Below are positions 509-58,903 of a stretch of 64,000 bases of DNA, in pieces; within the stretch, counting starts at the first letter, position 1; each line of letters starts with the position of its first letter. The position numbers and the translations under genes were made by a program. The DNA lies in assembly GCA_050613775.1 (NCBI GenBank), contig JBODTK010000154.1:124001-188000 (forward strand), read 5' to 3'. Source of the stretch: Neocallimastix sp. 'constans' (lineage: Eukaryota). The notes under the pieces are model-generated. The model made no database searches. It saw only the letters and a list, made by a program, of their open reading frames with translations, and was not told the DNA's origin.

Positions 509-529
509 AATTTTCTCTGGAAGAAAATT
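509..529 (+). promoter_or_regulatory. Conserved CTGGA-loop hairpin upstream of GH6 copy 1
   Basis: aattttct-ctgga-agaaaatt; the same element precedes all 7 intact GH6 genes. Confidence 0.75.
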
Positions 530-654
530 AAAGAAAAAAATATTTAATATTATTAATAATAAAAATAATATTTTGTATTGAGTACAAATAATATATTTTA
601 TATTAAAAATAAACATATTTTAGTAAAATATTATATTAATTGAAGTATTTAAAA

Positions 655-2121
655 ATGAAGGCCACTATTGCTTTAACTGCTGCTGCTGCTCTTGCCGCTA
701 AGGTTTCTGCTGCTTGTTTCTCAGAAAGATTAGGTTATCCATGTTGTTCTGGTAATGAAGTTGTTTACACCGATAATGATGGAAAGTGGGGTGTAGAAAA
801 CGGTAATTGGTGTGGTATTGCCGATGCCCCAGCTCAAGCTACTTGTTGGTCTCTTTCTCAAGGTTATCCATGTTGTTCTTCTTCAAATGCTGAAGTTTGG
901 TACACCGATGCCTCAGGTAAATGGGGTGTTGAAAATGGAGACTGGTGTGGTATTCCAACTGGTTCTACTGGTGGTAGCACTGGTGGTGGTAATGTTACTC
1001 CATCTAATGAACAATACACCATTTCTGGTAATCCATTCAAGGGTGTTGAATTCTATATCAATCCATACTATGTTGAAGAAGTTGATGGAGCTATTGCTCA
1101 AATGTCAGATTCTTCTCTTATTGCTAAGGCTGAAAAGATGAAGACTTACTCTAATGCTATTTGGTTAGATACCATTAAGAACATGCAAAGTTGGTTAGAA
1201 TCTAATTTACAAGGAGCTCAATCTCAACACCAATCTAGTGGTAAGGATATCTTAACTGTTTTCGTTGTTTATGATTTACCAGGTCGTGATTGTCACGCTC
1301 TTGCTTCTAACGGTGAACTTCTTGCCAATGATGGAGATTTAGCTCGTTACAAGTCTGAATACATTGATGTTATTGAAGGTCACTTAAAGACTTACAAATC
1401 TCAACCAGTTGTTCTTATTGTTGAACCCGATTCACTTGCTAACTTAGTTACTAACCTTGAATCTACTCCAGCTTGTGCTGATTCTGAAAAATACTATCTT
1501 GAAGGACATGCTTATTTAATTAAGAAGCTTGGTGTTCTTCCACATGTTGCTATGTATCTTGATATTGGTCACGCTTTCTGGTTAGGTTGGGATGATAATC
1601 GTGAAAAGGCTGGTAAAGTTTATGCTAAGGTTATTAGTTCTGGTGCTCCAGGTAATGTTCGTGGTTTCACTGATAATGTTTCTAACTACACTCCATGGGA
1701 AGATCCAACTCTTTCTCGTGGACCAGATACTGAATGGAATCCATGTCCAGATGAAAAGAGATACTTAGAAGCTATTTCTAAGGACTTCAAATCAGCAGGT
1801 ATCAAATCTGTTTACTTTGTTTCTGATAGTTCTCGTAATGGTAAGAAGGTTGATCGTAAGCATCCAGGAGAATGGTGTAACCAAACAGGAGTTGGTGTTG
1901 GAGCTAGACCACAAGCCAGTCCAGTTTCTGGTATGGATTATCTTGATGCTTTCTATTGGATTAAGCCACTTGGTGAATCCGATGGTACTTCTGATGAAAG
2001 TGCTGCTCGTTTCGATGGTTACTGTGGTCATGAAACCGCTATGAAGCCAGCACCAGAAGCTGGTCAATGGTTCCAAAAGCACTTTGAACAAGGTATTAAG
2101 AATGCTAACCCACCACTTTAA
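655..2121 (+). CDS. GH6 cellobiohydrolase with signal peptide and two N-terminal fungal dockerin (CBM10-like) domains, copy 1 (488 aa)
   Basis: First ATG at 655 (the ORF track starts at an upstream TTG at 640). Signal peptide [19 protein letters not shown], two C..LGYPCC...WGVENG.WCG modules, G/S/T linker, and GH6 motifs [21 protein letters not shown] and KPLGESDG. Same architecture as known anaerobic-fungal Cel6/CelA-type enzymes. Confidence 0.96.
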
Positions 2122-2624
2122 ATAAATTGAATAGAAATAAGGTTAAAATATTCAGATTTAAATAAAAAGGAAATTAATAAATGTAACAAATAAAATAAAT
2201 AGAAATATCTAATAATAATAAGAATGAGTAAAGTGATAAAAATTAAATAGAATGTAAAAATAAAGAGTACATAATGTAGTCAAAGAATATATTACTTAAT
2301 AAATAAAAAATTAAAAAAATATAATAAAAATATAAATTTATTAATATACTATATTTGCATTTATTATTTTTTTGTATTTTTATTCAGATTATATTTTTTT
2401 AATGCAAAATTTTTTATAATACTTAAATTTTGAAAATTATAAAATACTATTATTTTTTATATATAAAATATACCGTTCTTTTTTAATACTTATAAAAAAA
2501 AAATAATAGTACATTTTATATATAATTAATAATAGTATTTTGTAATTTTCAAAATTTAAGTATTTAAAATTTTAACCTTTAATTTATTTATATAGGTAAT
2601 TAGATTTTTATTTAATTAATTTTT

Positions 2625-2940
2625 ATTTATATTGATCCATTTTTCATATTATATATAAATTAAAATTAATTTTTCCATTGATTTAGTGAAATGCTTTGAA
2701 TTACTATAAATTTTGCATTTCTATCTTCTTCCAGCATTTCTTCTGTAACTTTACTATCATACACCACATTTTTATTGTATTTGATTTTAGTATGTTTATT
2801 AATTTCTTTATTTTTAATTTTTGAAATCTCTATCTTGAGTAAGAAATTTTCATGTACATATTCATCTGGATTGTGTATTTCAAGAATTATATTAACATCT
2901 TGGATCCATGATTTATAATTGGTGTGTGCAATTAAAAGTT
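2625..2940 (-). mobile_element. Ty1/copia-type Gag N-terminal relic
   Basis: Minus-strand frame with no upstream ATG reads HTNYKSWIQDVNIILEIHNPDEYV...EEDRNAKFIVIQSISLNQ, then (frameshift) YEKWINI. This resembles the copia Gag NY..W / D..A..I..S.S / A.E.W pattern. Confidence 0.55.
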
Positions 2941-4115
2941 TTTATTTATAGATTTAATTAATTTTACTTATCTATTTATTAATAAACAGTATATATTATT
3001 TATTTATTTTTTTTTTTGTTATAATAATATATTTATAATAATAAAGAATAAGATATTATTTAAACACATTAATATTTTTATTTTTATGTTGTTTATTTAA
3101 TAAATATAATAATGTAAAAGTATTATGGTTAACAAGGAGAGAAATAGATAATATATTCATGACGTTTTATGCAGAATGTCTATCGCATGAATAAATTTGT
3201 TACATATATATAAGTTACACAAAATATTTAAAATTATTGTTAACATAAAATGTTAAGTATTAATTTATATAAGATAATATAAATAAATTAATAGTATAAA
3301 TATTGATTAATTATCAAAAATAATACAATAATATTTACAAAATATTTAAAAATATTGTTTACATGAAATAAAAATGTTAATAAAGTATTAATTTTTATAA
3401 GACAATATAAAAAAAAAAAGTATTTATTAATTATCAAATACAATCAATAATATTTATATTATTATTATCTATTTTTTCTATATTTATATATTAGATTTTT
3501 TAATAATCTTAGAATAACGAATAAAAAAATAATTATAAAATTATAAAATTAATATTTTCTCAATAACTGAAAAGAAATATATAAATAAAATGAAACAAAT
3601 GATGTCTATATATACATTAAACTGAATCTAACCAACCCTTCAAAAATTTTTGAACTTAAATACATAAATCTATAATATTATCTTCCCTTAACAATAATTA
3701 TAAATGTATGAATCTTTAGATTCAAAAAATATCTTTTAATTGCAATAGTTCATAATATAAAAAAATATTCACAAAAACTTTCATAATAATCAAAAAACAG
3801 TTAAATTCAAAATTTAAATTTTTTTAACAATTTTTTATTGCTTTTATAAATAATCGTTTTTTTTTTTTTTTTTTTTTTTATTATTTTGTTTTCTATAATT
3901 AATTTTTTTTTCTTTATAATTTTTTTTGTATCTAATTTTTTTTTTTTTTTATTTTTTTTTTTTTTTTTGTATCTAATTTTTTTTATAGCAATTTTCTTTT
4001 TATTATATTTTATTTTTTATCTCATTTTAATCATTAATAGTACAAAATCAAAATAACTTATTAATTTATTCAATCGATAGTCTCTCATTTTAAAAGTTAT
4101 TTATATTCAATTTAT

Positions 4116-5573
4116 TTAAAGTGGTGGGTTAGCATTCTTAATACCTTGTTCAAAGTGCTTTTGGAACCATTGACCGGCTTCTGGTGCTGGCTTCATAGCA
4201 GTTTCATGACCACAGTAACCATCGAAACGAGCTGCACTTTCATCAGAAGTACCATCGGATTCACCAAGTGGCTTAATCCAGTAGAAAGCATCAAGATAAT
4301 CCATACCAGAAACTGGACTGGCTTGTGGTCTGGCTCCAACACCAACACCAGTTTGGTTACACCATTCTCCTGGGTGCTTACGATCAACCTTCTTACCATT
4401 ACGAGAACTATCAGAAACAAAGTAAACGGATTTGATACCTGCTGATTTGAAGTCCTTAGAAATAGCTTCTAAGTATCTCTTTTCATCTGGACATGGATTC
4501 CATTCAGTTTCTGGTCCACGAGAAAGAGTTGGATCTTCCCATGGAGTGTAGTTAGAAACATTATCAGTGAAACCACGAACATTACCTGGAGCACCAGAAC
4601 TAATAACCTTAGCATAAACTTTACCAGCCTTTTCACGATTATCATCCCAACCTAACCAGAAAGCGTGACCAATATCAAGATACATAGCAACATGTGGAAG
4701 AACACCAAGCTTCTTAATTAAATAAGCATGTCCTTCAAGATAGTATTTTTCAGAATCAGCACAAGCTGGAGTAGATTCAAGATTAGTAACTAAGTTAGCA
4801 AGTGAATCGGGTTCAACAATAAGAACAACTGGTTGAGATTTGTAAGTCTTTAAATGACCTTCAATAACATCAATATATTCAGACTTGTAACGAGCTAAAT
4901 CTCCATCATTGGCAAGAAGTTCACCGTTAGAGGCAAGAGCGTGACAATCACGACCTGGTAAATCATAAACAACGAAAACTGTTAAGATATCTTTACCACT
5001 ACTTTGGTGTTGAGATTGAGCTCCTTGTAAGTTAGATTCTAACCAACTTTGCATATTCTTAATAGTATCTAACCAAATAGCATTAGAGTAAGTCTTCATC
5101 TTTTCAGCCTTAGCAATGAGGGAAGAGTCAGACATTTGAGCAATAGCTCCATCAACTTCTTCAACATAGTATGGATTGATGTAGAATTCAACACCCTTGA
5201 ATGGATTACCAGAAATGGTGTATTGTTCATTAGATGGAGTAACATTACCACCACCAGTACTACCACCAGTAGAACCAGTTGGAATACCACACCAGTCTCC
5301 ATTTTCAACACCCCATTTACCTGAGGCATCGGTGTACCAAACTTCAGCATTTGAAGAAGAACAGCATGGATAACCTTGAGAAAGAGACCAGCAAGTTGGA
5401 GCATCGGCAATACCACACCAATTACCATTTTCTACACCCCACTTTCCATCGTTATCGGTGTAAACAACTTCGTTACCAGAACAACATGGGTAACCTAATC
5501 TTTCAGCGAAACAAGCAGCAGAAGCCTTAGCGGCAAGAGCAGCAGCAGCAGTTAAAGCAATAGAGGCCTTCAT
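4116..5573 (-). CDS. Dockerin x2 + GH6 cellobiohydrolase, copy 2 (485 aa)
   Basis: Intact intronless ORF, near-identical to copy 1, with the same motifs. Confidence 0.96.
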
Positions 5574-5681
5574 TTTCTTTATTTTTTAGTAATTAAATTG
5601 AATATAAAAAATACTTTTATAAAAATAAAAGAACTATTGTAAATCAATACAATATATTTTAATAATTATACTTATTAATTA

Positions 5682-5700
5682 ATTTTCTTCCAGAGAAAAT
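5682..5700 (-). promoter_or_regulatory. Conserved CTGGA-loop hairpin upstream of GH6 copy 2
   Basis: Reverse complement reads attttct-ctgga-agaaaat. Confidence 0.75.
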
Positions 5701-6996
5701 ATAAAAAAATTTGATGATGAATAGAATAAAGTAAAATTTCCTCTTTTTATATATTTCAAAAAAAAAAAAAAAAATTAATTTATATTTAATTTATTTAGTT
5801 TTTCTAAAAATTATACTAAGTACTCCTAATTAATTAATTAATTAATTATTATATAAAAATAATTTTCTATTAAATTATAATTTAATTTAAAAATTTTTTT
5901 TTGGATATGGAAAGATATAAATAAATAATTTAATATTATTAAAATGAAAAAACTATGATAAAACTTTAAAAAATATTAAAAAAAAATTTTTTTTTATTAT
6001 AATAATTAAAATTTACTGAAACTATTAATTATTAATATAATACTATTGTTTCGTTAATTAAATTTGATTTATTTTACATATTAATAACAAATTATTGTAA
6101 TTTTATCATATTAAATTTCTATAATCATTTTTAATAAATTAGGATTTCAGTATAACTATAAAATGAAGATCATAATGAATCCATGCATATGCCGATTTAA
6201 TGACAAATAAAAATTACCAATAAAAAGCCAAGCATTCCTTTTTTTAAAAAAATTAAGTAATATTAATAAATATTCCTTTTATTAAAAATTATATAATTTA
6301 ATATTTTTATTATAAATACATATTTGGTATATTTTATATTATAAATGCTATTATTATTAAAAATATTATTATATTTAAATTTTTAGCAACATATTTTTAT
6401 TATTATTATTATTATATTCAATTTTTATCAACATATTTTTTTAATATTATAAATAATTTTTATAATATATAAATTATATTTAATAAATTCTACAATAAAA
6501 AAAATATTTTTATTAAATACTACTATAAAAAAATATTTTTAAAAAAAGAATATTATTATAAAAAATATATTATCTTGTTATAAACTGTTCATTAATTATT
6601 GTACAATTTAAAATTTACTAATGCTCTGTTATATAAAAGTTACTTTTTACTGTAAAAATAATAAATAAAATACATTGATATTCATAAAAGTTTTGTTATT
6701 ATAAAAAATAAATTACTTTGTAAATATTATTATTTATCCTATATATATATTAGTCATTGTTATAAGTATTATTTTTTTTAAATATGTATAACTAAAATAT
6801 TTATTAATATAATATATTTTAAATAAATTTTAATATTAAACTATTCTTTAGTTATAGTAGATAAAATAAATTAAGGCATAATTAATTTATGAAAAAAAAC
6901 AAAAAAAATTAAAAATTAATGTAAATTATATTGTATTATATTTATTTTCAAAATAGAAGTTTTAATTTTATTACTTTATATTACTAAAAAAAAAAA

Positions 6997-7733
6997 ATGA
7001 TGGTCCCTATTACTAAAATTGCCGTTCCTTCCCTTTCCGTTAAGGATTCTACTGTCTGTTTCTATGAAAAATTATCCATAATGATCTTGTAAAGAAATTG
7101 TTTATACCGATAACAATAGAAAATGGGGTATAGAAAAAGTTAAATGATGTACTAATGCTGATACTCCAGTCAAGGTGCTTGTTGATCACTTTTTATCAAT
7201 TACTCATGTTATTTTTCTTCGAATAATGAAGTTTAGTAAACCGAGGGCTCCTATAAATGAGATAAGTATAAATGGTTTCATGATAATGTTTTTAACTACA
7301 CTCCATGGGAAGATCCAACTCTTTCTCATGAACAAGACACTAAATGGAACTCATTACTAGATGAAAAAAAGACACTTAGAAAAAATAATGAAAATTTTTA
7401 AGTCGGCTGATATTGAATCCATATATGTTGTTTCTGATAGTTCTCGTGTAAAGTTAAGAAGATTGATCGTACACATCCAAGTGAATAGCGTAACTAAATT
7501 GGTATTAATATTAGTTCCAAATCACAAGCCAGTCCAATTTCAGGTATGGATTACCTTCATGTTTTCTATTAGATTACGCCCCTTTGGTAAATCTGATGGT
7601 ACTTCTAATGAAAGTTCTACTCATTTCGATGGTTACTGTGGTCACGAAACTGTCATGAAACCAGCTCCAGAAACTACTCAATAGTTCCAAAATCACTTCA
7701 AACTAGATACTAAAAATGCTTACACCATTTTAA
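6997..7733 (+). pseudogene. Degenerate GH6-dockerin pseudogene with a large internal deletion
   Basis: ATG at 6997 is followed by decayed signal and dockerin sequence (gtttataccgataacaatagaaaatggggtatagaaaa). It jumps at ~7270 to the GH6 C-terminal part (aactacactccatgggaagatccaact...ttcgatggttactgtggtcacgaaac) and ends with taa at 7733. Many stops and frameshifts. Confidence 0.9.
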
Positions 7734-10091
7734 ATTTTAAATAAACTCAAAATATTAAAAATAACTTTATACTTTGTTTTGATCTTAATAATATATATTT
7801 ATCAATTTAAATTATTAAAAAAATTATTAAAAATAGAAAATATATTAAAAAAAAATCTACAAAAATAGATAATTTATTATAATTAGTTTGTTTATTTTTT
7901 TTAAAAAAAATTATATTATTTCCAAATAAATATATTAAAAAAAAAAAAATCTACAAAAATAGATGATTTATTATAATTTGTTTATTTTTTTTTTTTTTTT
8001 ATAAATTTTATTATTTCCAAAATAGTATTTATTTTAATACTACTATCAAACTATATAAATTATATATAATTAAAGTTTACATGTTATTATATATATTCTT
8101 AATTTCCTTTTTTGTTTTTTGCCTTTTTTTATTTTTTTTATTTTTTTTTTTTTTTTACATTCATTGAATATTAATATCACTTTTTTACAAAGATATATAT
8201 TTATATATTTTTTAATTAATGATTTGAAATAATTTATAAAAAAATTATTAGAAGATTAAAACTTAATCAGCATGAATATTTGTTTAATAATAAAGAAAAA
8301 TCTTTATGAAAAAAAAAAAAAATTTTTTTCTATTATTCGTTCATGTAAACGTATTACTCCAAAGGAAATATTTTTTCAAAATAACAATATTTAAATTAAT
8401 ATTATACAATATTATTTGCTTAAAAACATTATTTTCAAAAGATGTATTTAATAAATTATTAATAGTAAATTATTATGGATTATAAATATAATTAGAGCTT
8501 ATATTATTTTTATACTACATAGAGTGTTATTTTATCCTAGTATTCATATATATATATTTTTTTTTTTTTTTTTTTTTAATATTTTTTACATTTATTAAAT
8601 AACATAATATTACTATTAAAAAAGATATATAAATATCATTTTATTATACAATTATTATTTTACAATGAAATGGAATAATTTTTTTAAATAATATTAAAAC
8701 TTTATCAATATGAATACTTGTATAATAATAAAGAGAAAACTTTTATGAAAATTTTAGTTTTATTATTATTCGATCATAGTAAATGTATTGTTCCAAGGTA
8801 AATATCTTTCAAAATAATAATATAAAAGTAATATTATTTTATATGTAAACCATATATAATATTATTTATATAAAACATAATTTCCAAATAAGTATTTAAT
8901 TTATTATTATTTGTAAATTATATAGATTATATATAATTAAAATTCACACTGTTTTTAAATTATATTGAATTTTATTTTGTTTTATTATTCGTATATATCA
9001 TTTCCTTTTTTTATATTTTAAAAAAGTTACATTTAATTTAATATAGAATTACTATTTGATAATAATATTAAATATTTTCATAAATAATATTAAAAAAAAA
9101 AAAAAAAAGACTTAATACGAACATTTGTATAATAATAAATAGAAAACTGTTTTGTAATAAAAGTCTTATAATGGTGTATAATAATAAATAGAAAACTATT
9201 TTGTAAATAAAGGTCTTATTATGTCGTAGAAGTGGCTCCAAGATAAATACTTTTAGAGTAATAATATTAAAATAAATAATATTAATTATAAAAATTATTT
9301 TAGTATTAAATTATATAAAATTAAAGTTTATAATGATGAAATAAAATTAAATAATGGAAAACTGTATAAATTTTAATTATATATAATTTAGTACTAAAAA
9401 TAAATTAAATATATATTTGGAAATAATTTCTTATAATTAATATTATTTATTTTAATAATATTATTTCTATAACAATACTTCATCTTGATGACCTAATAGT
9501 ATAAGATTTTTAATTACTAAAATGTTCATATTAATTAACATATATATTCATCATTTCTTTTTTTTCTACAATTCCTTACTTTTATAAAATAAGAATGTAA
9601 TATAATTTTTTAAATATATATATATATGTATAATTTATTTCATGGATTATTAAATTAAATTTCTATAATTACATAGTGGAATATTTTTTTTTTAATTATA
9701 TTAAAAACTGATAACATATAAAACTTTAATTAAATCCAAAAAAATTTATAAATCATATAATAAATAAAAAAATTATATGTAAATTTTCATAAAATATATT
9801 TAAAATTTAATTTAGTATTTCCATTATAATCAAAGAGATATTACTAATTTTAATACAATTTTTTAAATATAATTTTCTAAATATATTTATTATTTATTTT
9901 TAATTTGAACTTTTTATATAAATATATCTATCTAATATAATTAATAAATTTATTATTAGATTATTATTATTATTAATTTTTGAATATATAATTAGTTATC
10001 ATTAATAAATTATACAAAAAAATTATTTATGTTTGAATACTATAATTTTAAATGAATAGTTAATCTGGTATTATTACTAAACTAAATATCA

Positions 10092-10133
<42 letters not shown>

Positions 10134-11531
10134 GATGTTAATAGGAAATAATTTAAAATTTTTATTTAAAATAATATTATTTAATTCTAAATAATAGTTT
10201 TTTTTTTTTTTTTTTTTAATATAATTTAAGAAAAAAAAATTCCCCTATAATATTTTATTATTATATTGAAATTTTGAAACATTAATATATGTATAATTTT
10301 ATATATAAAAAAATTAGTATTTAGTATATCACATAATAAATAGGAGACTTTATGAAAATCTTTATTATGAAATTAAAGTTTTAGTCATTTTAATATAATT
10401 TAAGAAATTAATTTATTTATTACTTTTAAATTTAAACTTAATTAAATTTTTAATTATTTTTTTATTTATTATTATTATCACTATTATTATCATTATATTA
10501 TGTTTATTATCATTATTATAATCATAATATTTTAAATATATACTTCGATTTAGTTTAATAGTCATTATCAAAAGAAATATATAATTTAAAATTTTCATCA
10601 TATACCTTAAAACAGAATGAATTAATTATCAAAATTAATATAAATTTGAATTTTATAATATACAACTTAAAAAAATTAAATACAGATACCATAATAATAA
10701 TTAATCTTTACAAAATATTTTTCGTTTTCAATTTTATTTTTATTTTTTATTATATATTTATAATTTTCCAGTATATATTATGAAAGATAAAAGAAATAAA
10801 AAATGGATTTCAAATAAAGTTAAATTATGATAAATTTTTTCTATATATAGGTATTAAAACGGAAAAAGATTATCTTTAATACAAACATAAAACAAGTGTG
10901 TAACATAACTTAGGTTAATTTTTATAATATTATTTATACTATTTAGTTAATTTGCTTATATATTTTTTTATAATATTAACTTTTAAAAAGATATAAAAGA
11001 TATTTAAATTGAAAATTTAAATAAAATTTAAATTTTAATATATTTATACTATATGGGAATTATATAGGAGAAGATATACTTAATATAAAACTAAAACTTG
11101 TGTAACTTAACCTAAATCATATTAAACTTTAGTAAAAAAAGTTCTAATATATATAGTTGTAATATAATTTAAAGTTTTTTGTGATATATTTTAAAACTTT
11201 TACAATATATTTTAAAATTTTCTTTAAATTTATATTATTTATTTTTAATTATACTATTAATTAAAACTTTATTTATTCCAAGTGATTTTCTTTTAGAATT
11301 TTTCATAAAATAAACTTTATTTTAATTAACTTTTATATAATTGGATAAAATATAAATTACAAAAAAAGAAAATTATTACACATTTTTATATTATACTACA
11401 AAAAAAAAAAAAATAAAATAAAAAATTTATTTAACATATCAATAAAGTTTTTTTTTTTCATTTCTTGAAATATAAATAGAACAATTTTTTTCTATTTTAC
11501 AATTTTTTTTCTTAATTTATTATTATTAATA

Positions 11532-11552
11532 AATTTTCTCTGGAAGAAAATT
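11532..11552 (+). promoter_or_regulatory. Conserved CTGGA-loop hairpin upstream of GH6 copy 3
   Basis: aattttct-ctgga-agaaaatt. Confidence 0.75.
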
Positions 11553-11665
11553 ACTTATTAAAGAAATTATAAAATATTGCTATAAAAATATTGTATTGAT
11601 TTACAATCATCTTAAATAATTTTTTTTTCTAGATATTTTTTTATAAAATTTTAATAAAAAAGAAA

Positions 11666-13890: not shown

Positions 13891-14086
13891 CCCCTTATAT
13901 ATTATTATTATTAGAAAAGATACTGAACTAATTAAGAGGGTTGCACTAGTACTATATATTTAAGAGGGAACTACTAGCATTTGGGTACATGATTTCATAT
14001 GTCCATGTAAATATATATTCTACCTGTGATATAAAATATATTCTACTAAATTGATATTTTTCTGACATTTATGTATTTGCCAAGGG
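13891..14086 (+). repeat. Partial copy of the same dispersed repeat family
   Basis: ccccttatat...gagggttgcac...gagggaactactagcatttgggtacatgattt...tttgccaaggg. Confidence 0.8.
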
Positions 14087-14864
14087 AACTCCAAATAAAA
14101 AAAAAAAAAAATCATTTTACCTTTTTATTTATTTATTATATACAAATTGTTTTATATTATTAATTCTGAATTTATATTTTTCCTTTATAAATTAATTATA
14201 TTCTTATATATAAATTATATAATATAAAATTAAATTTATAATGATATATAGCTTTTTTAAGATGAAATGTTTAAAAATATAAATTTTATTATGCTTTATA
14301 ACTGAAAAAGATAATTTTTTCAAAACGAAACTTTAAATATTCTTTACAAAATACATAAAAAAAAAAAAAAAAAAAAAACAATACTATTTAATCCTTTCCT
14401 TCTTTTTTTTTTTTTAAGGATTAATTTATTAATATCAACTTGCATCCATTATTACACATACATTTATAATTATTTTATATCTTTTTATATTTTTATTTAA
14501 TTTTTTATTTTTTTATAATTTTTTAATTTTATTAGTTTAATTTATTTTTTATTTTACTTTTAATTCATCTGACTTTTTTTAATTTTTTTATTTTAATACA
14601 TTTTTATCTATTTTTTTTAAAATATTTAATTTTACAAATTTTAATAGTTTCATTTCATTTAATTTTTTATACTATTTTTTTTCTTATAATTTAACAATAA
14701 AAATTTTTTTAATAATTTGTCAATTTTTTAAATTTATGATAGTCTCTAATTTTCAACTAAAAAAAATAATTATATAAAGGAACACACACTATTCAATTAA
14801 AGAAATAAACTTTAAAGTATATAATTATAAATTCTCATTTAAATTTTTAAGCTTCTCAATTTAT

Positions 14865-16307: not shown

Positions 16308-16426
16308 TTTATATATATTACTTATATAAAAAAAATTAATATTTAAAATATAACTTTGAAAAGATATTTTTATTGTAAATCAATACAAAATTTCAAATAT
16401 TATATATTTAATAATTTTTTTTAAAA

Positions 16427-16447
16427 AATTTTCTTCCAGAGAAAATT
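16427..16447 (-). promoter_or_regulatory. Conserved CTGGA-loop hairpin upstream of GH6 copy 4
   Basis: Reverse complement reads aattttct-ctgga-agaaaatt. Confidence 0.75.
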
Positions 16448-19272: not shown

Positions 19273-19532
19273 AATTCTAATTCCTAAAAATTTACAAGAG
19301 AGTTCTCTATTTCTAATATAAATAATTTAATTTATAAGAAATAGGTAATATATTAATTATATATTCTAATATATAGAACTATATAAATTTTATATGAAAT
19401 AAAGTATTATAATTATAATAATACATATTGAAATAAAATAAAATAAAATAATTATAATTATCAAAAAAGATATAAATTTAATATTATTATTAAATATACA
19501 AATATGTTACTACACATATTTGTTTTATATCA
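19273..19532 (+). repeat. Left arm of a ~260-bp inverted repeat (partner 23824-24089)
   Basis: aattctaattcctaaaaatttacaagagagttc... is the reverse complement of ...gaactctcttgtaaatttttaggaattagaatt. Confidence 0.85.
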
Positions 19533-19746: not shown

Positions 19747-19837
<91 letters not shown>

Positions 19838-21697: not shown

Positions 21698-21718
21698 AAT
21701 TTTCTCTGGAAGAAAATT
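21698..21718 (+). promoter_or_regulatory. Conserved CTGGA-loop hairpin upstream of GH6 copy 5
   Basis: aattttct-ctgga-agaaaatt. Confidence 0.75.
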
Positions 21719-21818
21719 AAAGGACAATAAAATTTGTTGTTTGAATTAAAATAAACTATAATTTGTATTGATTTACAAACTATTATTAAATAATTAAATA
21801 AATAAAATTTATTGAAAA

Positions 21819-48816: not shown

Positions 48817-50617
48817 TATCTTTTGCAATTTAAAAATGTATTACGAATTTTACATTCTTAACTTTATCTTAAACATATCAATTCTTGTATATAATCAGCA
48901 ATGTAATAGAGTTTTTTTGTTTTTAGTCATTCTGTCAATAGAAAATATAATTTTTGACAACAGAAGAAATATATATATATATATGAAACAGATGGTATAT
49001 AATACTAACAAATTTTAAAAAGTTCATTATATAGTATTAAATAAAAAATTGATCTCTTTAAATGGAAAAGGATGAAATAAAATTTAAAGATTTTAAAATT
49101 TTAATTACAATATAAAAATAAGCTAAATAAGATATTAGAAAAATTGGAAAAATTAATAATTAAATAAATTATTAATGCATATAATAAAGTTGATATAATA
49201 GATATAATATAAAATTTATTAGAAAAAATGTTTTTTTTTTTTTTATATTATATATTGTACTTATTATTTCATATTTATAAGTAAATATATATTAACAATA
49301 TATTAAAACTGAACATTCAGGTAAAGGAATTAGTTACAGTATAAGTAAAAAATGATTTAAATAATATGAATTTAATTTACCTAATTTAAGGAATAATTTA
49401 AATTAATCTTCTTTTATATATTTATATATAATTAGATAATATTTTATTTATTATATTTAGATTTATCAATTTTAATTTATTTATTGTTACACAATTATTA
49501 ATCATTTTAATTATAATTATTTATTAAAAATGTCTAAAATAAGCTTTATATATATATATTTTTTTTTTATATAAACATTTTTAAATATTTATATTTATAT
49601 AATATTATAATTTTTATAGTAATAATAAAATAATAATAAAATAATAATAATAAAATAATAAAAATAATAAAAATAATAAAAATAATAAAAATAATAAAAA
49701 TAATAAAAATAATAAAAATAATAAAAATAATAAAAATAATAATAACAATAAAACCTGTATGCACCGCACTATATGAAAAAATTGGAACTAAGAAGTCAAT
49801 AATTTCATAGTAAAATTTGTAAAATTGTGAATGAAGATATCTTATTAAATATATAGAAAAAGTAGAATATATGAGAATTTATTATGTGAGCAAATTTGAA
49901 CTTTCAAAAGTTAGTATTGGTCATCAAATATAATAAAAAAATTAAAAAAGGTATAAAAAAAATACTATTAAAATATATATTTATATAAAAAATACGAAAA
50001 AAAATTAAATATATAGTCTTATTTGTTATTAATATATTATAAAATAAAATTATATGTGTTAGTTATCAAATATATTCGATAAAAATGACTGTTTTTATTA
50101 ATAGTTTGAAATTTTTTTATCTTTACAATATATTATCAAATTTTATATTTATTAAGAATTTTAAAATTATTTATAATTAAAAAGGTATATTGATGAAATT
50201 ATTATGTTGAAATGAAACTTTAATTTATAATTTAATATTATATTTTTTTATTAATAAGATATTATAAATATTTATAAAATTATATGTAAATTTATTAATA
50301 TTAAATAATTTTATTGATTTAGGATTTTTATTTTGTGCTTCATTTATATATATATATATAAATAAATATTAATTAACTTTATTCAAAAATCTTATTATTT
50401 ATCATTAGTTACACATATTTTTTTATCCAAAATATATCAAAATTTTTTTATTATAAGTAAAAATTCATATAAATTATTGATATGAATTTATTATAAATAT
50501 AAATAGATTAAAAAATAGCTGGAATAATTTTAATTTATGTATTTTCAATTATATATAAATTATATAATTGTTTTATTAACTATTATGTTTATTATTAATT
50601 TTTTTTAATATAGTTTT

Positions 50618-50853
50618 ATAATTTTTTTGATTAATGAATTTTGAATATAATTTTTTTGATTCATGAATTTTGAATATAATTTTTTTGATTCATGAATTTT
50701 GAATATAATTTTTTTGATTAATGAATTTTGAATATAATTTTTTTGATTAATGAATTTTGAATATAATTTTTTTGATTCATGAATTTTGAATATAATTTTT
50801 TTGATTCATGAATTTTGAATATAATTTTTTTGATTAATGAATTTTGAATATAA
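50618..50853. repeat. 29-bp minisatellite, ~8 copies
   Basis: Unit ataatttttttgatt(a/c)atgaattttgaat. Confidence 0.9.
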
Positions 50854-51102
50854 TGTTAATATTTTGTCATTAAAAAAAAAAAAAGAATTAAAATATTTCA
50901 CTGATTTGTAAAAATAATAATTAAAAGATTTTTTTTTTAACTATGTGAAATATTTTAATTTTTATTAATAAAAATAATTATATTTTATATTTATATCAAT
51001 GCAATGTAATGGAACAATTTTATTAGATTTACTAAATTTTATTAAAGTTATAATTTGATAAAACAGCTAAACTACTAATACTAGTACTAATACTAATACT
51101 AA

Positions 51103-51134
<32 letters not shown>

Positions 51135-53885
51135 ATAATAATAATAATAATAATAATTGATAAAGAATAATCAAAATCTTTATAATTATAACTACATTTT
51201 ATTTATTATTATTTTATAATTTTATATGTAATCATAAAAATTTTAATAAAACTCCGAAAGCATATAAATTAGGAATTTAGAAATATATCTTAGAAATCAA
51301 TCTTGCTTAGAAATGAGGTTCAAATATTTTAATTTTGATATTTTTAAATGTAATTTTAAAGGATTATAAAAATATGCTATAAAATATTATATTATTGAAT
51401 ATTTTAACTTAGGGAAGTCAATAAAATTATATTAAAATAATTAATGTTTAATATAAATAAAGATAATAAATAATAAATATAAGACATATAAAATAATGTA
51501 AATAATTGTATATAAATTGTATATAATTTATTAGTAATTATAATAAATATTTTATTATAAATAAATAATTATCTTTTTTTTAAATGTTGAAATTTAAAAT
51601 TTAATATCAATAATAAAAAAAAATATTATAAATATATTATTTTATTATTACTAATATAAATAAATTTTACTATCTATTATTATGAATAATGTAATTGATG
51701 AGATAATTTATAAATTGTATATAAAAAAAATTTCTTTACCATATTAGTATTTTTTTTTATTTGAATTCATGAAACATTTAATTTAAAATTTATTAATATT
51801 TTTATTAATTTGTAATTTTAATTTTATATAAATAAACAGATAAAAAAATTATAAAAATAGAAAAAAAAAAAAAAAGAAAATAATTAGAAAAATGAAAATT
51901 TTAATTTACTTTTATTCTTAAAAAAATATATATAATTAGCAAAGAAGTTTTATAATTCTATGTAACAGAATTAAGTTATTATTAACATTTATTTTTATTT
52001 TATTTTAATAATAAAAGTGGTAACTTTTTATTATTTTATTAATGCAAATAAAAATAATTTAATAATTTAAAATATTATTTTTTAAACAAAACATGGCAAA
52101 TAATTATATTTAATATGAATATTTGAAATATATTTAAAATTGTGTATATATAATTTTTTTTTTTTTATTTATTTATTATTAATTTTATAAAAATAATTAC
52201 CATATTTATTTAAATAAAAAAAAAATCATAAATAATTAATTATTATTTATAATTAATCTTTTAGTCCTGAATTTTATTGGTATAAAATATATAAATTAAA
52301 AATATATGTAATGATAGTACAAATAATCTATCATTATATATTATATGTATATGTATATGTATATGTATACAATAGTTATATTTGTAAATAAATAAATATT
52401 TGTTAGTTAAATATAATACATTTTTAATAATATATTAATAGTATAATTTGAACAATGGTTTAATAGATGAATCATAATACAAAAAAATTAGATCATACCT
52501 ATATAATTATTGTAATTATATATTTAATAAAGTTTTGTATTTATAAAATAATGTATGTCATTTTTGTATAAGTTAGTTAAAACGATTTATTCGGAAGAGC
52601 TTTTAAATATAAATCTAATAAGTGTATTTTCTGATTGTTTTAATAAATATATATATTTTTTAATTCAAATTTAAATTATATTTATTATTTTAAATTTTTT
52701 TATTGATTATATTTTAAATATTAGATAATTATAAAAATAAAATTAAATAATATTTTAATAAAAATAAATTAAAAAAAAAAATACATATTGGATAATGACT
52801 CCAAAAATATATTTTGAATATATGACTGAACGGTAGATGAAACTTTATAGGCTAATTTTATTTTATTTTATTTCATATTTTTTAAAATTATTTTTAAAAA
52901 AAAATAAAATAAAACTCATTATAATTATATTATTAAATTCTTTTTATTCCTTTATAAATTGGAATTTTTTTTTTTTTATTTATTGTATATATTTTAAACA
53001 TAGCAATAGTATATATATACCATAAACACTAATTGATTGTGTAATAATTTATTTCATAAAAACTATAATATATGATAATATATATTTATATATAAAAATG
53101 TCTGTTAATAGTTAACTTTTAATTAACTGTTTTAATCTAAATGGTTTTAATAATTATTATAACAAAGAAAGCTTATCAAATTAAAAAATAAATAAAAAAA
53201 ATATATATATATATACTTTAGTTTTCTTTCAACTATTTTTTATCTTACTATATATCAAGTATACCTTTATTATTATTATTATAATTATTTTTTTTTTTTA
53301 AAAAAATTAATGAAATAATATTATGTTACATTAAATAAATTACTTTACATAAAATGACATGGTTATTTAATATTATTAGAATTAATTAAATGAAAATGAA
53401 ATGTTTTTATTAAAAACAATCTATGTATAATTTAATTTAATTTTAAAAAATTTTTTTTAAAAAAAAAAAAAGAAAAAGAAAACATATCTAAATTAAGTAA
53501 ATTTTAAATTTTGTAATGTATTTATTTATTTATACATCTATATTTTTTAATTTAGCCAAAAAAAAAAAAAACAACTTTTTTTTTAAAAAAATATTATATA
53601 GTGTTTTATTTATTATATAAAGTTTATTATTTTAATATTAATCTACAATACACAATTTAATAAATTATTTTAATATTCATATATCAATAATATATAATAT
53701 ATAGATAATATACTATTTTGTTCAATAATTAATATAGTAATTTTTAAATATAAAAAGGGTAATAATTTTCTTTTTCTTTTTTTTTTTTTTTTTGTTTTTT
53801 TTTTTATTTTTTTTTAATATATATTATACGTTATAAACATTTATTATTAATTATCATAATAAATATTTATTGCAAAAAAAAAATC

Positions 53886-53902
53886 TTTTCTCTGGAAGAA
53901 AA
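53886..53902 (+). promoter_or_regulatory. Conserved CTGGA-loop hairpin upstream of GH6 copy 6
   Basis: ttttct-ctgga-agaaaa. Confidence 0.75.
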
Positions 53903-54098
53903 TAAATATACTTAATTATATATATAATAAATATTTATACGTTTTTTATAGATAATATAAAAGTATTTGTATTTAATTATTAAATAGTCAATACAATTAT
54001 TTCTAATTAACAGGAAATAGTCTATTTTTTTTTGTTTTGTAAACAAGTTTTATATTTTTACATAATAAATCCTATTATTTTTTTTTGACATAATTAAA

Positions 54099-55571
54099 AT
54101 GAAGACATCTCTTGCTTTAATTACTGTTACTACTCTTGCCGCTAAGGCTTCTGCTGCATGCTTCTCTCAAAGTTTAGGTTATCCATGTTGTTCTGGAAAT
54201 GACGTTGTTTACATCGATAATGATGGTAAATGGGGTGTTGAAAATGGTAACTGGTGTGGTATTGCTGATACTCCAGCTCCAGCTGCTTGCTGGTCAACAA
54301 GTTTAGGTTATCCATGTTGTTCATCTTCTAGTGCCCAAGTTTACTACACTGATAATGACGGAAAGTGGGGTGTTGAAAATAATGACTGGTGTGGTATTCC
54401 AACTGGTTCCATTGGCGGTGGAAACAGCGGTGGAAATGAAGAAGTAAATGTTACTCCAGGTGAACAATACACTCACAATGGTAATCCATTCTCTGATGTT
54501 GAATTCTTCATTAATCCATACTATACTGCTGAAGTTGATGCCGCAATTGCTCAAATGAGTGATTCTTCCCTTATCGCTAAGGCTGAAAAGATGAAGACAT
54601 ACTCTAATGCTATTTGGTTAGATACCATTAAGAATATGAATGAGTGGTTAGAAAAGAATTTAAAGGGAGCTCTTGCTCAACAAAGTGGAAGTAAGAAGGT
54701 TTTAACCGTTTTTGTGGTTTACGATTTACCAGGTCGTGATTGTCACGCTCTTGCTTCTAATGGTGAACTTCTCGCCAATGATGGTGATTTAGCTCGTTAC
54801 AAGTCTGAATACATTGATGTTATTGAAGGTCACTTAAAGACTTATAAATCTCAACCAGTTGTTCTTATTGTTGAACCTGATTCACTTGCTAACTTAGTTA
54901 CTAACCTTGAATCTACTCCAGCTTGTGCTGACTCCGAAAAATACTATCTTGATGGTCATGCTTACTTAATTCAAAAGTTTGGTATTCTTCCACATGTTGC
55001 TATGTATCTTGATATTGGTCACGCCTTCTGGTTAGGTTGGGATGATAATCGTGAAAAGGCTGGTAAAGTTTACTCTAAGGTTATTAGTTCTGGTGCTCCA
55101 GGTAAGGTTCGTGGTTTCACTGATAATGTTGCTAACTACACTCCATGGGAAGATCCAACTCTTTCTCGTGGACCAGAAACTGAATGGAACCCATGTCCAG
55201 ATGAAAAGAGATACTTAGAAGCCATGCACAAGGACTTCAAATCAGCTGGTATTGAATCAGTTTACTTTGTCTGCGATACTTCTCGTAATGGTAAGAAGGT
55301 TGATCGTAAGCACCCAGGAGAATGGTGTAACCAAACTGGAGTTGGTGTTGGTGCCAGACCACAAGCCAGTCCAGTTTCTGGTATGGATTATCTTGATGCT
55401 TTCTACTGGATTAAGCCACTTGGTGAATCTGATGGTACCTCTGATGAATCTGCTGCTCGTTATGATGGTTACTGTGGTCATGAAACCGCTATGAAGCCAG
55501 CTCCAGAAGCCGGTCAATGGTTCCAAAAGCACTTTGAACAAGGTATTAAGAACGCTAACCCTCCACTCTAA
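54099..55571 (+). CDS. Dockerin x2 + GH6 cellobiohydrolase, copy 6 (490 aa)
   Basis: Intact ORF with a more divergent N-terminal half; GH6 catalytic motifs conserved. Confidence 0.96.
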
Positions 55572-56009
55572 GTTTGAAATCTATTTATAAAATAGATTAA
55601 ATTCTTTCTGTCATTGAGGAAAAATAGAAATAATGTTTAACATTTTTTTTAAATAATAAAGAATAAAGTTTACTATTAGAATGAATTTTCTTTTTTTTCA
55701 TATCAATAAAATATTATAAATAAAATATTACTCTAAATATTAATAGAGTATTTTTAAAAAAATAAATATTCTGATGTTTTTTTTTTTTTTTTTTTAATAA
55801 ATATTTAAATTATATAATATTTATAATGTATATATAATGAACATATAATTATTATATAATACTATATATTTATTTTTATTGATAATAAATAGAAATAATA
55901 TATTAGTAATGATATCATTAATAGATTGTTAAAATTCGATTTTATATTTTTTTCTAATTATTTACTAGTAATATAATATGTCTCTCTATATTATAAATTA
56001 TTAAGTAAA

Positions 56010-56690
56010 AGGGAATTAGTTTAGTTCTAAAATTTTGGAGGGCCATAAGTATTGAAATAAGCAAATAATTAAACCCAGCTTTGATTAAATACTTTTTGAT
56101 TTAAATTGCTTTTTTTAATTATTGAATTTTCTTATTAAATCATTATATGATATTCATTCATGATTTCTTAAAACCATTTTCTAATTTAATTTTTTATCAA
56201 AGCAAATTGTATCAGAAGATTTCCCAACATATTGCCTTTATTGCGGTGAAAATAACAAATTTTAATTCCTAAATTTGAAGAATTCAGGCAATAAGCATTT
56301 CATTTGTTGATGAAAATTTTTTTTAAATTGTCTCTGATTGCTCAAGTAAAAACATTAATCATTCCTTATGATAATGAGGAAGATTATGAATATAATATTA
56401 ATTTTTGTGTACTGTTTCTCCTTCTTAGAGAAAATGCGGTTTTAAGGAAAGAAGGAGATTGATTAATTATTATTATTATTACTATTTTTTTTTTTATTTC
56501 AATCACCTTCGAGAGAGTCTTTTTTCTAAATTTCTTCTTTCATGATGCTTACGTAATAATAACCTTACTAATGATATGCCAATGATAATTAATGATTTTT
56601 ATACTACAGTCATTTTGTATACCATTGAATCTACAGTTGTCAAAAGCAAGAGCGTTGACATTAATGTCTAAACGATAAGGCAAAAAAAAA
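56010..56690 (+). mobile_element. 3' fragment of a related LINE
   Basis: 56200-56425 aligns by eye with 26900-27170 (cccaacata...cctaaatttgaagaatt.aggc...tctctgattgctca...tgataat.aggaag). Encodes PTYCLYCGE and PKFEEFR and ends in an A-run at ~56682-56691. Confidence 0.65.
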
Positions 56691-58881
56691 ACATTCTGAT
56701 ACTGATTCGCCCTCATAAAATAATGTTTTAATACTAATATAAAAACTTCATATATTTTATTTTCATGCAATTCCTCAATCTTTTAATTAAATTCTGTTAT
56801 TCAAAGTAATAAAAATTTAAAATTCCACGTTAATCACAGATATCTTATATTTTTTGAATAAGTTTTTTATTTTTTTTAAATTTCTACTATTCGTTTTATA
56901 TATATATATATTACTTTCAAGTTTATATAATTATTATACAATTTTTGAATAAATTTTAAGTAATGATAAAATATTCTCCTTTTAGTCTATAAAGATTTTA
57001 ATAAAAAAAAATGAAAAAAAAAAATGAAGAAAAAAAAAATATTTATATTTATATATATCTAACTATATTTATATTATATTTATATATCACAATTTGTCAA
57101 AACTTTATAATTTTTTTTTCCAAAAATTACTCATCATTAAAAATTATATTAAAAATAAAATTATATTAAAAAAAGTATTAAAAATATATATATATATATA
57201 TATGTAGTAATGAATTAAAATATTTTCATATCTATGAAGGCTTTATTGTAATAAGTATTATTGCTATATTTGTATGATAAATAGTAATGAAAAAAAAAAT
57301 AAAATAAAATAGAATTGTAATCATAATTAAACTTTATAAAATATGATTATTATATTTTGAATTTACCTTTTTCTCTTTTCACAGAAAATTTTTTTAATAA
57401 TCAATGATTGATTAAAAGATTAATAAATAAGAATTTATATTTATTATGAAAAGCACAATTATACATAAGTACAAAATAAAATTAAATAGATAAGTAATGT
57501 TGTTAACTATATAGTTAAAACTTAATAAGAATAAATTATAAAGCATCATATTAAATTTGTAATTCTAATTTACCATAGATATATCAATTTTTTAAAATCA
57601 TACTTTTTTAATATTTACTATATTTATTATATCAATATTGTATAATTAAATTCATTTTATATTAATTCATATTATATTATGTATTATATATATATATTTG
57701 ATTACAATATTTTATATTTTAAAATAATATTTTTTAAAATAAAAGCTATTAATAATTGTTAGCTTTTTATAATATATAATTCATAGTAATTTTTTTTTTT
57801 TTATTTTATTATTGTTTTTGTCATTTTTTTTTGTCATTTATTACTATTGTTATTTTTTTTTAGTCATTTATTACTTTTTTCATAAATATTAATTTATAAT
57901 GCATATCATGTCTTATGCTTATTTTTTCTATTTTCTATTTTAATAAAAATTAATTTTTAAATACAATATTTTCTATATATTATAATTTATTATTATAATT
58001 CATATATATATATATTTTTTATATATATTATAATTTCTATATTACTATTATTTATATTTATCATTATGTTCCATTTATTTTTATTTATATTTTTTTTATT
58101 TTTCCATTATATTATCATTTTTCCAATTTAATAATTTTTAATTTATTTCAATTTAAAAATATATAAAATATATATAATATAAACTTTTTATATAACAACT
58201 CTAAATAAATATATATTTTTTTTATTTTTTATTATAAATATTATATTGTAGTTTTTAAAAATTAATTCTATAAATTATAAAATTAATTAAAAAATTTTAT
58301 TAATAATAATAATCTATATTGTGTAAGTAATTAATTTCCTGGAAATAATTCTAAATACTATTGTTTTAAATAGAGTTTAATAAAAAATTATTTCATTGTG
58401 CCATATTAAATAAATTAAATAATAATTAGGTAACTAAAGACAATTTAATTTCCGAAATGCTAATTAAAATATATTTTGAGTGAAACAAAAAAAACAAAAA
58501 AAAAAAAAACAATGATTATATAAAATAATATAAACATTATTTAATAAAATTCATAGAAATAATAAATTTTAAAATATATTAAGTAAAAAATGTCTATTAT
58601 TTTATATAAATTCTATTTATATAATATCATGTCATACATTAAAATTTATATTCAATATATATATTTAATTTTTTAAAAATATGTAATTTATTTGATATTA
58701 AAAATATGAAATGTTTTTTAGTTATTATTATTAATTAATTTATATTTTTATTGTTATTACTAATAATATTATTATTCTAAATATATTATATTAAAAAAAT
58801 GTATAAAAAGAGTATATTTTTCTTCATTTATTCAATTCAATATAATAATTAAATAATAGAATTATTATTATTATAAAAAGA

Positions 58882-58903
58882 AAATTTCTCTGGAAGAAAA
58901 TTT
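58882..58903 (+). promoter_or_regulatory. Conserved CTGGA-loop hairpin upstream of GH6 copy 7
   Basis: aaatttct-ctgga-agaaaattt (one bulged A). Confidence 0.75.

What the first reader, a model, noticed from the sequence alone, without database searches (positions are those of the whole stretch)
509..58903. Invariant CUGGA-pentaloop hairpin (Smaug/Vts1-element-like) upstream of all seven intact GH6 cellulosomal genes
Seen: paralog homology stops within ~10 nt of the start and stop codons. Even so, every intact copy has TTTCT-CTGGA-AGAAA (5-8 bp stem) at 509-529, 5682-5700(-), 11532-11552, 16427-16447(-), 21698-21718, 53886-53902 and 58882-58903. It is always in the gene's sense orientation, ~70-200 nt before the ATG and ~40-130 nt after a TATA-like box. 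I did not see it elsewhere in the window or upstream of the pseudogene. Established: SAM-domain proteins Smaug and yeast Vts1 bind stem-loops with a CNGG(N) loop (canonical CUGGC) and repress or destabilise mRNAs. Inference: this is a 5'-UTR RNA element giving coordinated post-transcriptional control of cellulase mRNAs in gut fungi. The stem shows no covariation, so a quasi-palindromic DNA site (TTC-N4-GAA) for a dimeric transcription factor remains an equal alternative.
Basis: partly seen in the sequence, partly recalled or inferred. Interest (0 to 1): 0.88.

Follow-up and report, generated by a model that had tools for sequence, protein, structure and literature searches.

The report
Smaug-type RNA hairpins on cellulosome mRNAs
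The messenger-RNA leaders of many plant-wall-degrading enzymes in anaerobic gut fungi carry one or two small hairpins whose loops match what Smaug/Vts1-type proteins bind, so these fungi likely control much of their cellulose-digesting machinery after transcription through one shared RNA signal.

Summary
TTTCTCTGGAAGAAA lies in sense orientation upstream of 7 of 7 intact GH6-dockerin genes and nowhere else in the window (0.33 expected). For gene 6, contigs of three likely-RNA runs run through the motif into or up to the start codon, while DNA upstream of the TATA box is nearly uncovered. It is therefore a 5'-UTR element.

In 68 non-redundant related dockerin-gene leaders, 28 of 33 CNGG words sit in hairpin loops (0.3 expected; antisense 0 of 3). 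Stems change completely while the loop stays, and TTC-N4-GAA survives in only 16 of 28. This rejects the DNA-site alternative.

It is also enriched in other enzyme families (13 of 31 versus 0.3). A UUGAC loop is a published Vts1 ligand. A third loop type, C(A/U)AG, takes its place in some GH6 leaders.

The best reading is a cap-proximal SRE-type element bound by a Vts1/Smaug-like SAM protein. The binder and the sign of the effect are untested. New variant of a known kind; interest 0.76.

The parts
509..529 (+). Hairpin 1 of GH6 gene 1: 8-bp stem, CUGGA pentaloop
572..588 (+). Hairpin 2 of gene 1: 6-bp stem, UUGAG loop
655..2121 (+). GH6 gene 1 (signal peptide-like start, 2x CBM_10 dockerin, GH6), 488 aa, one ORF
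4116..5573 (-). GH6 gene 2, 485 aa
5635..5654 (-). Hairpin 2 of gene 2: 7-bp stem, UUGAUU loop
5682..5700 (-). Hairpin 1 of gene 2: 7-bp stem, CUGGA loop
6997..7735 (+). Decayed GH6 copy (internal deletion, stops), no motif upstream
11532..11552 (+). Hairpin 1 of gene 3: 8-bp stem, CUGGA loop
11590..11607 (+). Hairpin 2 of gene 3: 6-bp stem, UUGAUU loop
11666..13135 (+). GH6 gene 3, 489 aa
14865..16307 (-). GH6 gene 4, 480 aa
16373..16388 (-). Hairpin 2 of gene 4: 5-bp stem, UUGAUU loop
16427..16447 (-). Hairpin 1 of gene 4: 8-bp stem, CUGGA loop
21698..21718 (+). Hairpin 1 of gene 5: 8-bp stem, CUGGA loop; the leader from 21681 to the ATG is present letter for letter at the 5' end of transcript-like contig L002
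21762..21779 (+). Hairpin 2 of gene 5: 6-bp stem, UUGAUU loop
21819..23261 (+). GH6 gene 5, 480 aa
53749..53769 (+). TATA-like box plus T-tract of gene 6; contig depth is 0-2.5 upstream of it and 52-433 over the leader in three runs (like boxes start at 436, 5751(-), 11471, 16506(-), 21622, 58802)
53886..53902 (+). Hairpin 1 of gene 6: 6-bp stem, CUGGA loop; inside contigs that reach the start codon with no intron joint
54099..55571 (+). GH6 gene 6, 490 aa
58885..58899 (+). Hairpin 1 of gene 7: 5-bp stem, CUGGA loop; no UUGA hairpin found in this leader
58970..60445 (+). GH6 gene 7, 491 aa (2x CBM_10 + GH6)

Best explanation
These are RNA hairpins in the 5' untranslated leaders of cellulosomal enzyme mRNAs, likely bound by a Vts1/Smaug-type SAM-domain protein that would silence or destabilise the whole set of mRNAs together. 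SHOWN: gene 6's motif is in the transcript; the motif is strand-specific; the stem covaries; the loop is conserved; two loop classes share a 1-4 pair (C-G or U-A) with G at position 3; the elements occur across several enzyme families. FROM THE LITERATURE: such loops bind Vts1, Smaug and ZCCHC14 SAM domains, and Vts1 triggers Ccr4-Not deadenylation and Eap1/eIF4E-linked decapping. INFERRED: the weak stem is fixed mainly by protein binding. A protein bound some 20-100 nt from the cap, with a second site about 50-100 nt before the AUG, would couple cap access to decay. That gives a fast off-switch for very abundant secreted enzymes, for example when free sugar accumulates.
For: Transcribed: single contigs span 53826-54103 (0 differences, depth 108), 53854-54203 (0 differences, depth 52) and 53874-54238 (2 differences, depth 433), and bins 53500-53772 have depth 0-2.5. 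L002 begins 20 nt before the motif and matches the gene 5 leader exactly. 19 of 27 first hairpins lie within 40 nt of their contig's 5' end. Loop-specific and strand-specific: 28 of 33 CNGG words in sense leaders are in stems of 5 bp or more, against 0.29 in shuffles (maximum 3 of 200), 0 of 3 antisense and 1 of 14 in 3' flanks; CNGG ranks first of 64 loop classes. Covariation: unrelated stems close the same loop; 7 of 7 pairs change on both sides (pre-selected alignment); without selection 143 of 160 cells pair, and the 11 sites outside the common stem pair 43 of 55 against 28.6 after arm swapping (2 of 10000). G-U substitutions occur in L020, L028 and L040. Second class: UUGAU loops in stems of 6 bp or more, 13 of 31 against 0.31 (antisense 1 of 29, 3' 1 of 27), whereas loops without G3 (UU[ACU]A) are not enriched (17 versus 13.9). 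PMC2275152 (passages) names uCUGGCa and a synthetic uUUGACa as Vts1 SAM ligands. PMC9282228 (passages) shows a CUGGA pentaloop in a viral 5' UTR binding ZCCHC14. PMC4053848 (section 9) finds CUGG and five-base loops the best predictors for Smaug.
Against: No SAM protein was looked for in these fungi and no binding was tested. The hairpins are weak (-1.1 to -3.2 kcal/mol for the three CUGGA hairpins folded); genes 6 and 7 fold no better than shuffles, and the antisense strand of gene 1's hairpin folds better, at -4.1. Predicted pairing falls to 0.05-0.83 with 50-nt flanks and to 0.0 for gene 3 in a whole-leader fold. The closing pair is U-A or A-U in 13 of 15 distinct rows, with one G-C, whereas Vts1 prefers G:C (PMC3045596 passages). 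Most Smaug sites lie in reading frames, not leaders (PMC4053848). The C(A/U)AG class lacks G3 and does not fit the known SAM rule. The three runs that cover the leader are not on record as RNA; the one run on record as RNA (X3) does not cover it. These mRNAs are very abundant in the runs, which fits a stabilising role as well as a conditional repressor.
Confidence: 0.5

Rival explanations
1. The same SAM-type recognition has a positive outcome: the bound protein stabilises the mRNAs or promotes their translation or delivery to the secretory ER, as ZCCHC14-TENT4 stabilises viral RNAs carrying Smaug-type loops.
For: All the structural evidence above applies equally. PMC9282228 describes SRE-like loops recruiting TENT4 to stabilise HBV and HCMV RNAs, and an identical CUGGA loop in a 5' UTR acting positively for hepatitis A virus. 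GH6 coding contigs reach summed depths of 10^4-10^5 in all four runs (paralogs summed, a poor measure of expression).
Against: ZCCHC14 is to my recollection an animal protein. The fungal family member described in the papers read, Vts1, promotes decay (PMC3468468 abstract).
Confidence: 0.2
2. The hairpins are RNA elements read by a non-SAM protein, or by several proteins, that recognises CUNG-like loops; or they act structurally on cap-proximal scanning.
For: The C(A/U)AG class (14 of 18 in GH6 leaders versus 1.0) sits at the position of the UUGA hairpin. It never occurs with it in 27 close-clade leaders (13 CWAG, 5 UNGA, 0 both), so one reader may accept both A3 and G3. [quoted passage not shown]
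Against: The two main classes match exactly the two loop types reported for Vts1, and G3-less UU[ACU]A loops are not enriched. The stems are too weak for a purely structural block.
Confidence: 0.18
3. The motif is a double-stranded DNA site downstream of the start site (for example TTC-N4-GAA) for a dimeric transcription factor.
For: Within the window and the close GH6 clade the 15-mer is nearly invariant, more than a stem alone would need. It is quasi-palindromic.
Against: TTC-N4-GAA is kept in only 16 of 28 sites. Flanks change to unrelated self-complementary arms, including G-U pairs. Orientation is one-way (28 versus 0). Distance from the TATA box varies from 53 to 138 nt.
Confidence: 0.06
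4. The motif is a neutral relic of gene duplication or gene conversion.
For: The coding sequences are 86-98% identical. Esterase-like genes carrying the same stem share a similar N-terminal module, so some copies are not independent.
Against: Flanking leader sequence is at shuffled-level identity while the 15-mer is invariant. Unrelated stems with the same loops occur in GH45, GH3-GH6, GH26, GH5, GH53 and GH3 genes.
Confidence: 0.04

Closest known systems
Smaug recognition element (SRE) bound by Drosophila Smaug / yeast Vts1 / SAMD4
   Same: CNGGN0-3 loop on a stem of 4 bp or more of free sequence; preference for CUGG and five-base loops (PMC4053848 section 9; PMC3045596 passages); U-A closure as in the uCUGGCa model SRE (PMC2275152); two sites per mRNA as in nanos.
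   Different: Here the site is at a recurring cap-proximal place in the 5' UTR, not in the 3' UTR or reading frame. The closing pair is almost never G:C. A natural UUGA(U) class is common; the paper read describes UUGAC only as a synthetic ligand. A C(A/U)AG class has no counterpart. The targets are secreted enzymes of one complex. Binding is not shown.
ZCCHC14-TENT4 binding stem-loops (HAV 5' UTR stem-loop Vb, HBV PRE, HCMV RNA2.7)
   Same: HAV Vb has the identical CUGGA pentaloop and lies in a 5' UTR (PMC9282228 passages).
   Different: Those are viral RNAs in human cells with a positive outcome. No fungal counterpart was tested.
Known regulation of gut-fungal CAZymes: catabolite repression, partly by natural antisense transcripts
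   Same: Same class of target genes; free sugar represses them (PMC8065543 and PMC5737911 passages; the antisense paper seen only as a title in a reference list).
   Different: No cis-element or RNA-binding protein is mentioned in the passages read.

Membership tests
Smaug recognition element (SRE) | Loop sequence CNGGN0-3 | tested here: met
   CUGGA in 7 of 7 window copies; CUGGA, CUGGU, CUGGUU and CAGG loops in relatives
Smaug recognition element (SRE) | Stem of at least 4 bp with free sequence (covariation) | tested here: met
   5-8 bp in the window; unrelated stems and compensatory changes. Predicted stability is low.
Smaug recognition element (SRE) | Located in the mRNA, sense strand | tested here: met
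   Gene 6 leader covered by contigs of 3 of 4 runs, none of the 3 on record as RNA; L002; 28 sense versus 0 antisense. Start sites were not mapped.
Smaug recognition element (SRE) | Preferred G:C closing pair (a preference, not a requirement) | tested here: not met
   U-A 9, A-U 4, G-C 1, other 1 of 15 distinct rows
Smaug recognition element (SRE) | A Vts1/Smaug-type SAM protein is encoded by the organism | not tested
   No genome held and no query sequence for the protein came from any call; paper searches returned 0 papers
Smaug recognition element (SRE) | Binding by the SAM domain, and repression or decay of the mRNA | not testable with these tools
   Needs binding and reporter assays
Vts1-binding UUGA(N) loop variant | U1-A4 in place of C1-G4 with G3 kept, on a stem | tested here: met
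   5 of 7 window leaders; UUGAU 13 of 31 versus 0.31, G3-less control not enriched; thresholds chosen after seeing the data
TTC-N4-GAA dimeric transcription-factor site | Both half-sites and spacing conserved, either orientation | tested here: not met
   16 of 28 keep it; one orientation only
Any Rfam 15 family | Match at gathering score | tested here: not met
   0 matches in the 64 kb window

The most novel reading that the evidence does not exclude
Anaerobic gut fungi run the catalytic part of their cellulosome as a post-transcriptional regulon. A Vts1/Smaug-type protein reads a three-word hairpin code (CUGGN, UUGAN, C(A/U)AGN) placed in tandem in the 5' UTRs of cellulases and esterases from many families but not of serpin or CotH dockerin proteins. 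These genes are widely held (recalled) to include horizontally acquired bacterial ones, so they would have been put under an ancient eukaryotic RNA switch. The switch may be the sugar-triggered shut-off, or may hold mRNAs silent in zoospores until they encyst on plant tissue.
Probability: 0.35. Interest if true: 0.9.

Novelty: new variant of a known kind. Interest (0 to 1): 0.76.

Why it matters
Gut fungi are strong natural degraders of plant biomass, and their enzymes are shut down by free sugar, which limits their use. The papers searched name no cis-element for this. A short, mutable RNA element shared by many enzyme families makes the question directly testable: mutate one loop base, or knock down one protein. 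It would also extend SRE biology to an early-diverging fungal phylum, to 5' UTRs, and to natural UUGA loops. Native leaders could be read by yeast Vts1 in heterologous expression.

Tried and rejected
No genome is held for the window, so no genome-wide scan or background set of housekeeping genes was possible. Run X3, the only laid run on record as RNA, gives no cover of the gene 6 leader, which proves nothing either way. A 5'-UTR intron in gene 6, suggested by a branch-point-like word and an AG near 54000-54015, was rejected: contigs cross it without a joint. Rfam: 0 matches. Paper searches found no description of the element: 0 papers; 182 papers hold a 10-letter part of the motif; the 30 listed are unrelated by title; 0; 18 papers, none on it by title or abstract start; 0; 11 listed, none on it by title or abstract start; 0; 1, unrelated. 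The library lacks most subscription papers, including the early Piromyces/Orpinomyces cDNA papers, and no supplements were read. Earlier-findings look-ups gave nothing that bears on this. Other ORFs in chimeric contigs were tried as a control set; two showed a hairpin (L018, L030), but their flanks are fusion junctions, so the control was not used. A PUF-site reading of the UGUA-starting second hairpin was considered and set aside, because other UUGA hairpins have different stems. The GNGC, CNCT and TNTG enrichments look like shifted registers of the same hairpins (GNGC seen; the other two inferred).
Full report
OBSERVATION. The window is 18.9% G+C and holds seven intact, single-ORF genes of 480-491 aa. 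Genes 1 and 7 were scanned and are 2x CBM_10 (fungal dockerin) plus Glyco_hydro_6; gene 1 matches solved Cel6A cellobiohydrolases. This anatomy points to an anaerobic gut fungus (Neocallimastigomycota; inference from established knowledge). The 15-mer TTTCTCTGGAAGAAA occurs 7 times, once upstream of each gene in sense orientation, with no other match at up to 2 mismatches; shuffles give 0.33. Stems are 5-8 bp. The motif is 70-197 nt before the ATG and 53-138 nt after a TATA-like box. With the motif cut out, the 220-nt upstream regions of the paralogs align at 0.60-0.71 identity against 0.62-0.66 for shuffles, while coding sequences are 0.86-0.98 identical. The motif has been kept while its surroundings drifted.

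IS IT IN THE RNA? I laid 4 of 22 listed runs on 53500-56200, gene 6. In X1, X19 and X2 single contigs cover 53826-54103, 53854-54203 and 53874-54238 with 0, 0 and 2 differences and depths 108, 52 and 433. They contain the motif, reach the ATG at 54099, and show no intron joint in the leader. Bins from 53500 to 53772, upstream of and including the TATA box, have depth 0-2.5, and coding bins 10^4-10^5. That pattern fits RNA. Caveats: those three runs are not on record as RNA; contigs cannot give a start site; reads are cut in the T-tract at 53759-53825; and X3, the one recorded RNA run, does not cover the leader. Independently, contig L002 starts at window 21681, 59 nt after gene 5's TATA box and 20 nt before the motif, and matches the leader letter for letter.

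RELATIVES. One scan of metagenome contigs with the gene 7 protein returned the best 80 of 156 confirmed relatives. Most are 1-3 kb contigs with one main ORF and short AT-rich flanks, which looks like assembled cDNA (inference; library type is not given). Pfam shows GH6 of a close and a distant clade, and other dockerin proteins: GH3, GH5, GH10, GH26, GH43, GH45, GH53, glucuronoyl esterase, GDSL esterases, serpins and CotH, plus a group with weak alpha/beta-hydrolase hits. Before counting I dropped 3 loci whose longest ORF was not the matched one and 4 with GC-rich chimeric upstream sequence, and merged 5 near-duplicate pairs, leaving 68. The dropped loci cut both ways: L035 has a CUGGU hairpin and the first ORF of L077 has a UUGAU hairpin, but the GH6 ORF of L034 has neither.

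LOOP AND STRAND. In up to 260 nt upstream of the ATG, 28 of 33 CNGG words sit in loops of 4-7 nt on stems of 5 bp or more. Dinucleotide shuffles give 0.29 (maximum 3 of 200); the antisense strand gives 0 of 3, and 3' flanks 1 of 14 sense and 2 of 19 antisense. CNGG is first among all 64 loop classes. 19 of 27 first hairpins lie within 40 nt of the contig's 5' end, and all are 78-215 nt before the ATG.

COVARIATION. The common stem TTTCT/AGAAA accounts for 19 of 28 sites. The rest include ATTCA/TGAAT in the distant GH6 clade, two different stems in a GH3-GH6 leader, TGATA/TATCA in a GH45 leader, an AT-alternating stem in a GH26 leader, and single changes giving G-U pairs. On an alignment of 30 sites, 93.3% of cells pair and 7 of 7 pairs change on both sides, against 63.9% in shuffles and 49-65% in slid controls. 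That alignment was partly selected for stems (25 sites with 5 bp or more, two weaker ones, three from the window), so I recounted without selection: 143 of 160 cells pair over 32 sites in a fixed five-base register. The 11 sites outside the common stem pair 43 of 55, against 28.6 when arms are swapped between sites (2 of 10000); some of these 11 are related to each other. TTC-N4-GAA is kept in 16 of 28. The DNA-site alternative does not survive this.

SECOND AND THIRD HAIRPINS. Five of seven window leaders carry a second hairpin 47-63 nt after the start of the first motif, with a UUGAG or UUGAUU loop; genes 6 and 7 have none by this rule. In the relatives UUGAU loops on stems of 6 bp or more number 13 of 31 (shuffles 0.31, maximum 3 of 300; antisense 1 of 29; 3' 1 of 27), and 9 of 21 in non-GH6 leaders alone (0.12). 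Loops lacking G at position 3 are not enriched (17 of 687 versus 13.9), and U[ACG]GA loops only marginally (3 versus 0.98; 22 of 300 shuffles). These thresholds were set after seeing the data. [quoted passage not shown] So the two classes are a compensatory pair inside the loop, with G3 kept. A third class, C(A/U)AG loops closed by G-C, occurs in GH6 leaders (14 of 18 versus 1.0) but not elsewhere (1 of 5). Among 27 close-clade leaders 13 have it, 5 have a UNGA hairpin and none has both. It lacks G3 and is unexplained.

BREADTH. Among leaders of 100 nt or more, 35 of 48 enzyme or enzyme-like genes have a CNGG or UUGA hairpin, against 0 of 7 serpin and CotH genes (Fisher p = 4e-4; non-GH6 enzymes alone 14 of 19, p = 1e-3) and 0 of 2 unassigned. 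The grouping is post hoc and the sequences are related. The sample was chosen by dockerin similarity, so specificity against housekeeping mRNAs is not established. No CNGG hairpin appears within 260 nt upstream of the three non-GH6 starts I could place in the window, at 29668(-), about 35147 and 39978 (starts).

MECHANISM. Shown: an RNA-strand, loop-specific, covarying hairpin in 5' leaders. Inferred: a SAM-domain reader. Smaug-family proteins are described as conserved from yeast to humans (PMC9893680 passages). Smaug favours CUGG and five-base loops (PMC4053848 section 9). Vts1 recruits Ccr4-Not and, through Eap1 and eIF4E, decapping (PMC3468468 abstract and outline). [quoted passage not shown] I put SAM-type recognition at about 0.7, split 0.5 repressive and 0.2 stabilising; the identical CUGGA loop acts positively in the hepatitis A virus 5' UTR through ZCCHC14-TENT4 (PMC9282228 passages). 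Against the reading: the hairpins are weak and context-sensitive in prediction; closing pairs are U-A or A-U where Vts1 prefers G:C; most Smaug sites are in reading frames; and the ortholog was not looked for.

NOVELTY. The element class is known. Its use at recurring positions in 5' UTRs of a fungal enzyme complex, with natural UUGA and C(A/U)AG variants, was not found in Rfam, in paper searches, or in earlier findings. Searches served to find background papers (listings seen). The library misses most subscription papers and no supplements were read, so an early mention in cDNA papers cannot be excluded. Verdict: real feature, new variant of a known kind, interest 0.76.

Noticed in passing
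window 655-23261: Five GH6 genes in alternating orientation are 94-98% identical in coding sequence, but their upstream flanks are near random identity, which suggests gene conversion confined to coding sequence.
   Followed up: partly
L045, L046, L053, L069 5' ends: Alpha/beta-hydrolase-like dockerin proteins carry the same stem as the close GH6 clade and a similar signal-peptide and dockerin start; leader, signal and dockerins may have moved as one cassette onto a different catalytic domain.
   Followed up: no
L004, L005, L007-L009, L011, L013, L015-L017, L020, L024, L025, L028 leaders: C(A/U)AG-loop hairpin closed by G-C, at the place of the UUGA hairpin and never together with it; reader unknown.
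   Followed up: partly
L022/L032 leader, 35 nt before the ATG: A 7-bp hairpin with a UAGAU loop, a possible UNGA variant.
   Followed up: no
window 39978-40469 (+): Single-ORF NUDIX hydrolase (Pfam 7.9e-16) among intron-rich neighbours; possible horizontal transfer, not tested.
   Followed up: no
window about 35147-36443 (+): Multi-exon gene whose last exon has a weak DcpS_C/HIT-type Pfam hit (5.4e-05).
   Followed up: no
window 28457-29668 (-): 403-aa very acidic protein with a signal-peptide-like start and no Pfam hit at E 0.1.
   Followed up: partly
window 31913-32800, 38778-39500, 13912-14090: Dispersed, GC-richer repeat at 73-94% identity between copies, overlapping a 51-nt tandem unit at 32618-32772; probably a decayed mobile element.
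   Followed up: no
window 54185-54205 and 59056-59076 (+): Genes 6 and 7 have a further CUGGA word in a G-U-rich 8-bp potential stem early in the coding sequence; may be chance.
   Followed up: no
window 26621 (-) and 37869 (-): Two CUGGAA(U)-loop hairpins of 8 and 7 bp outside the GH6 genes, not near an ORF that I identified.
   Followed up: partly
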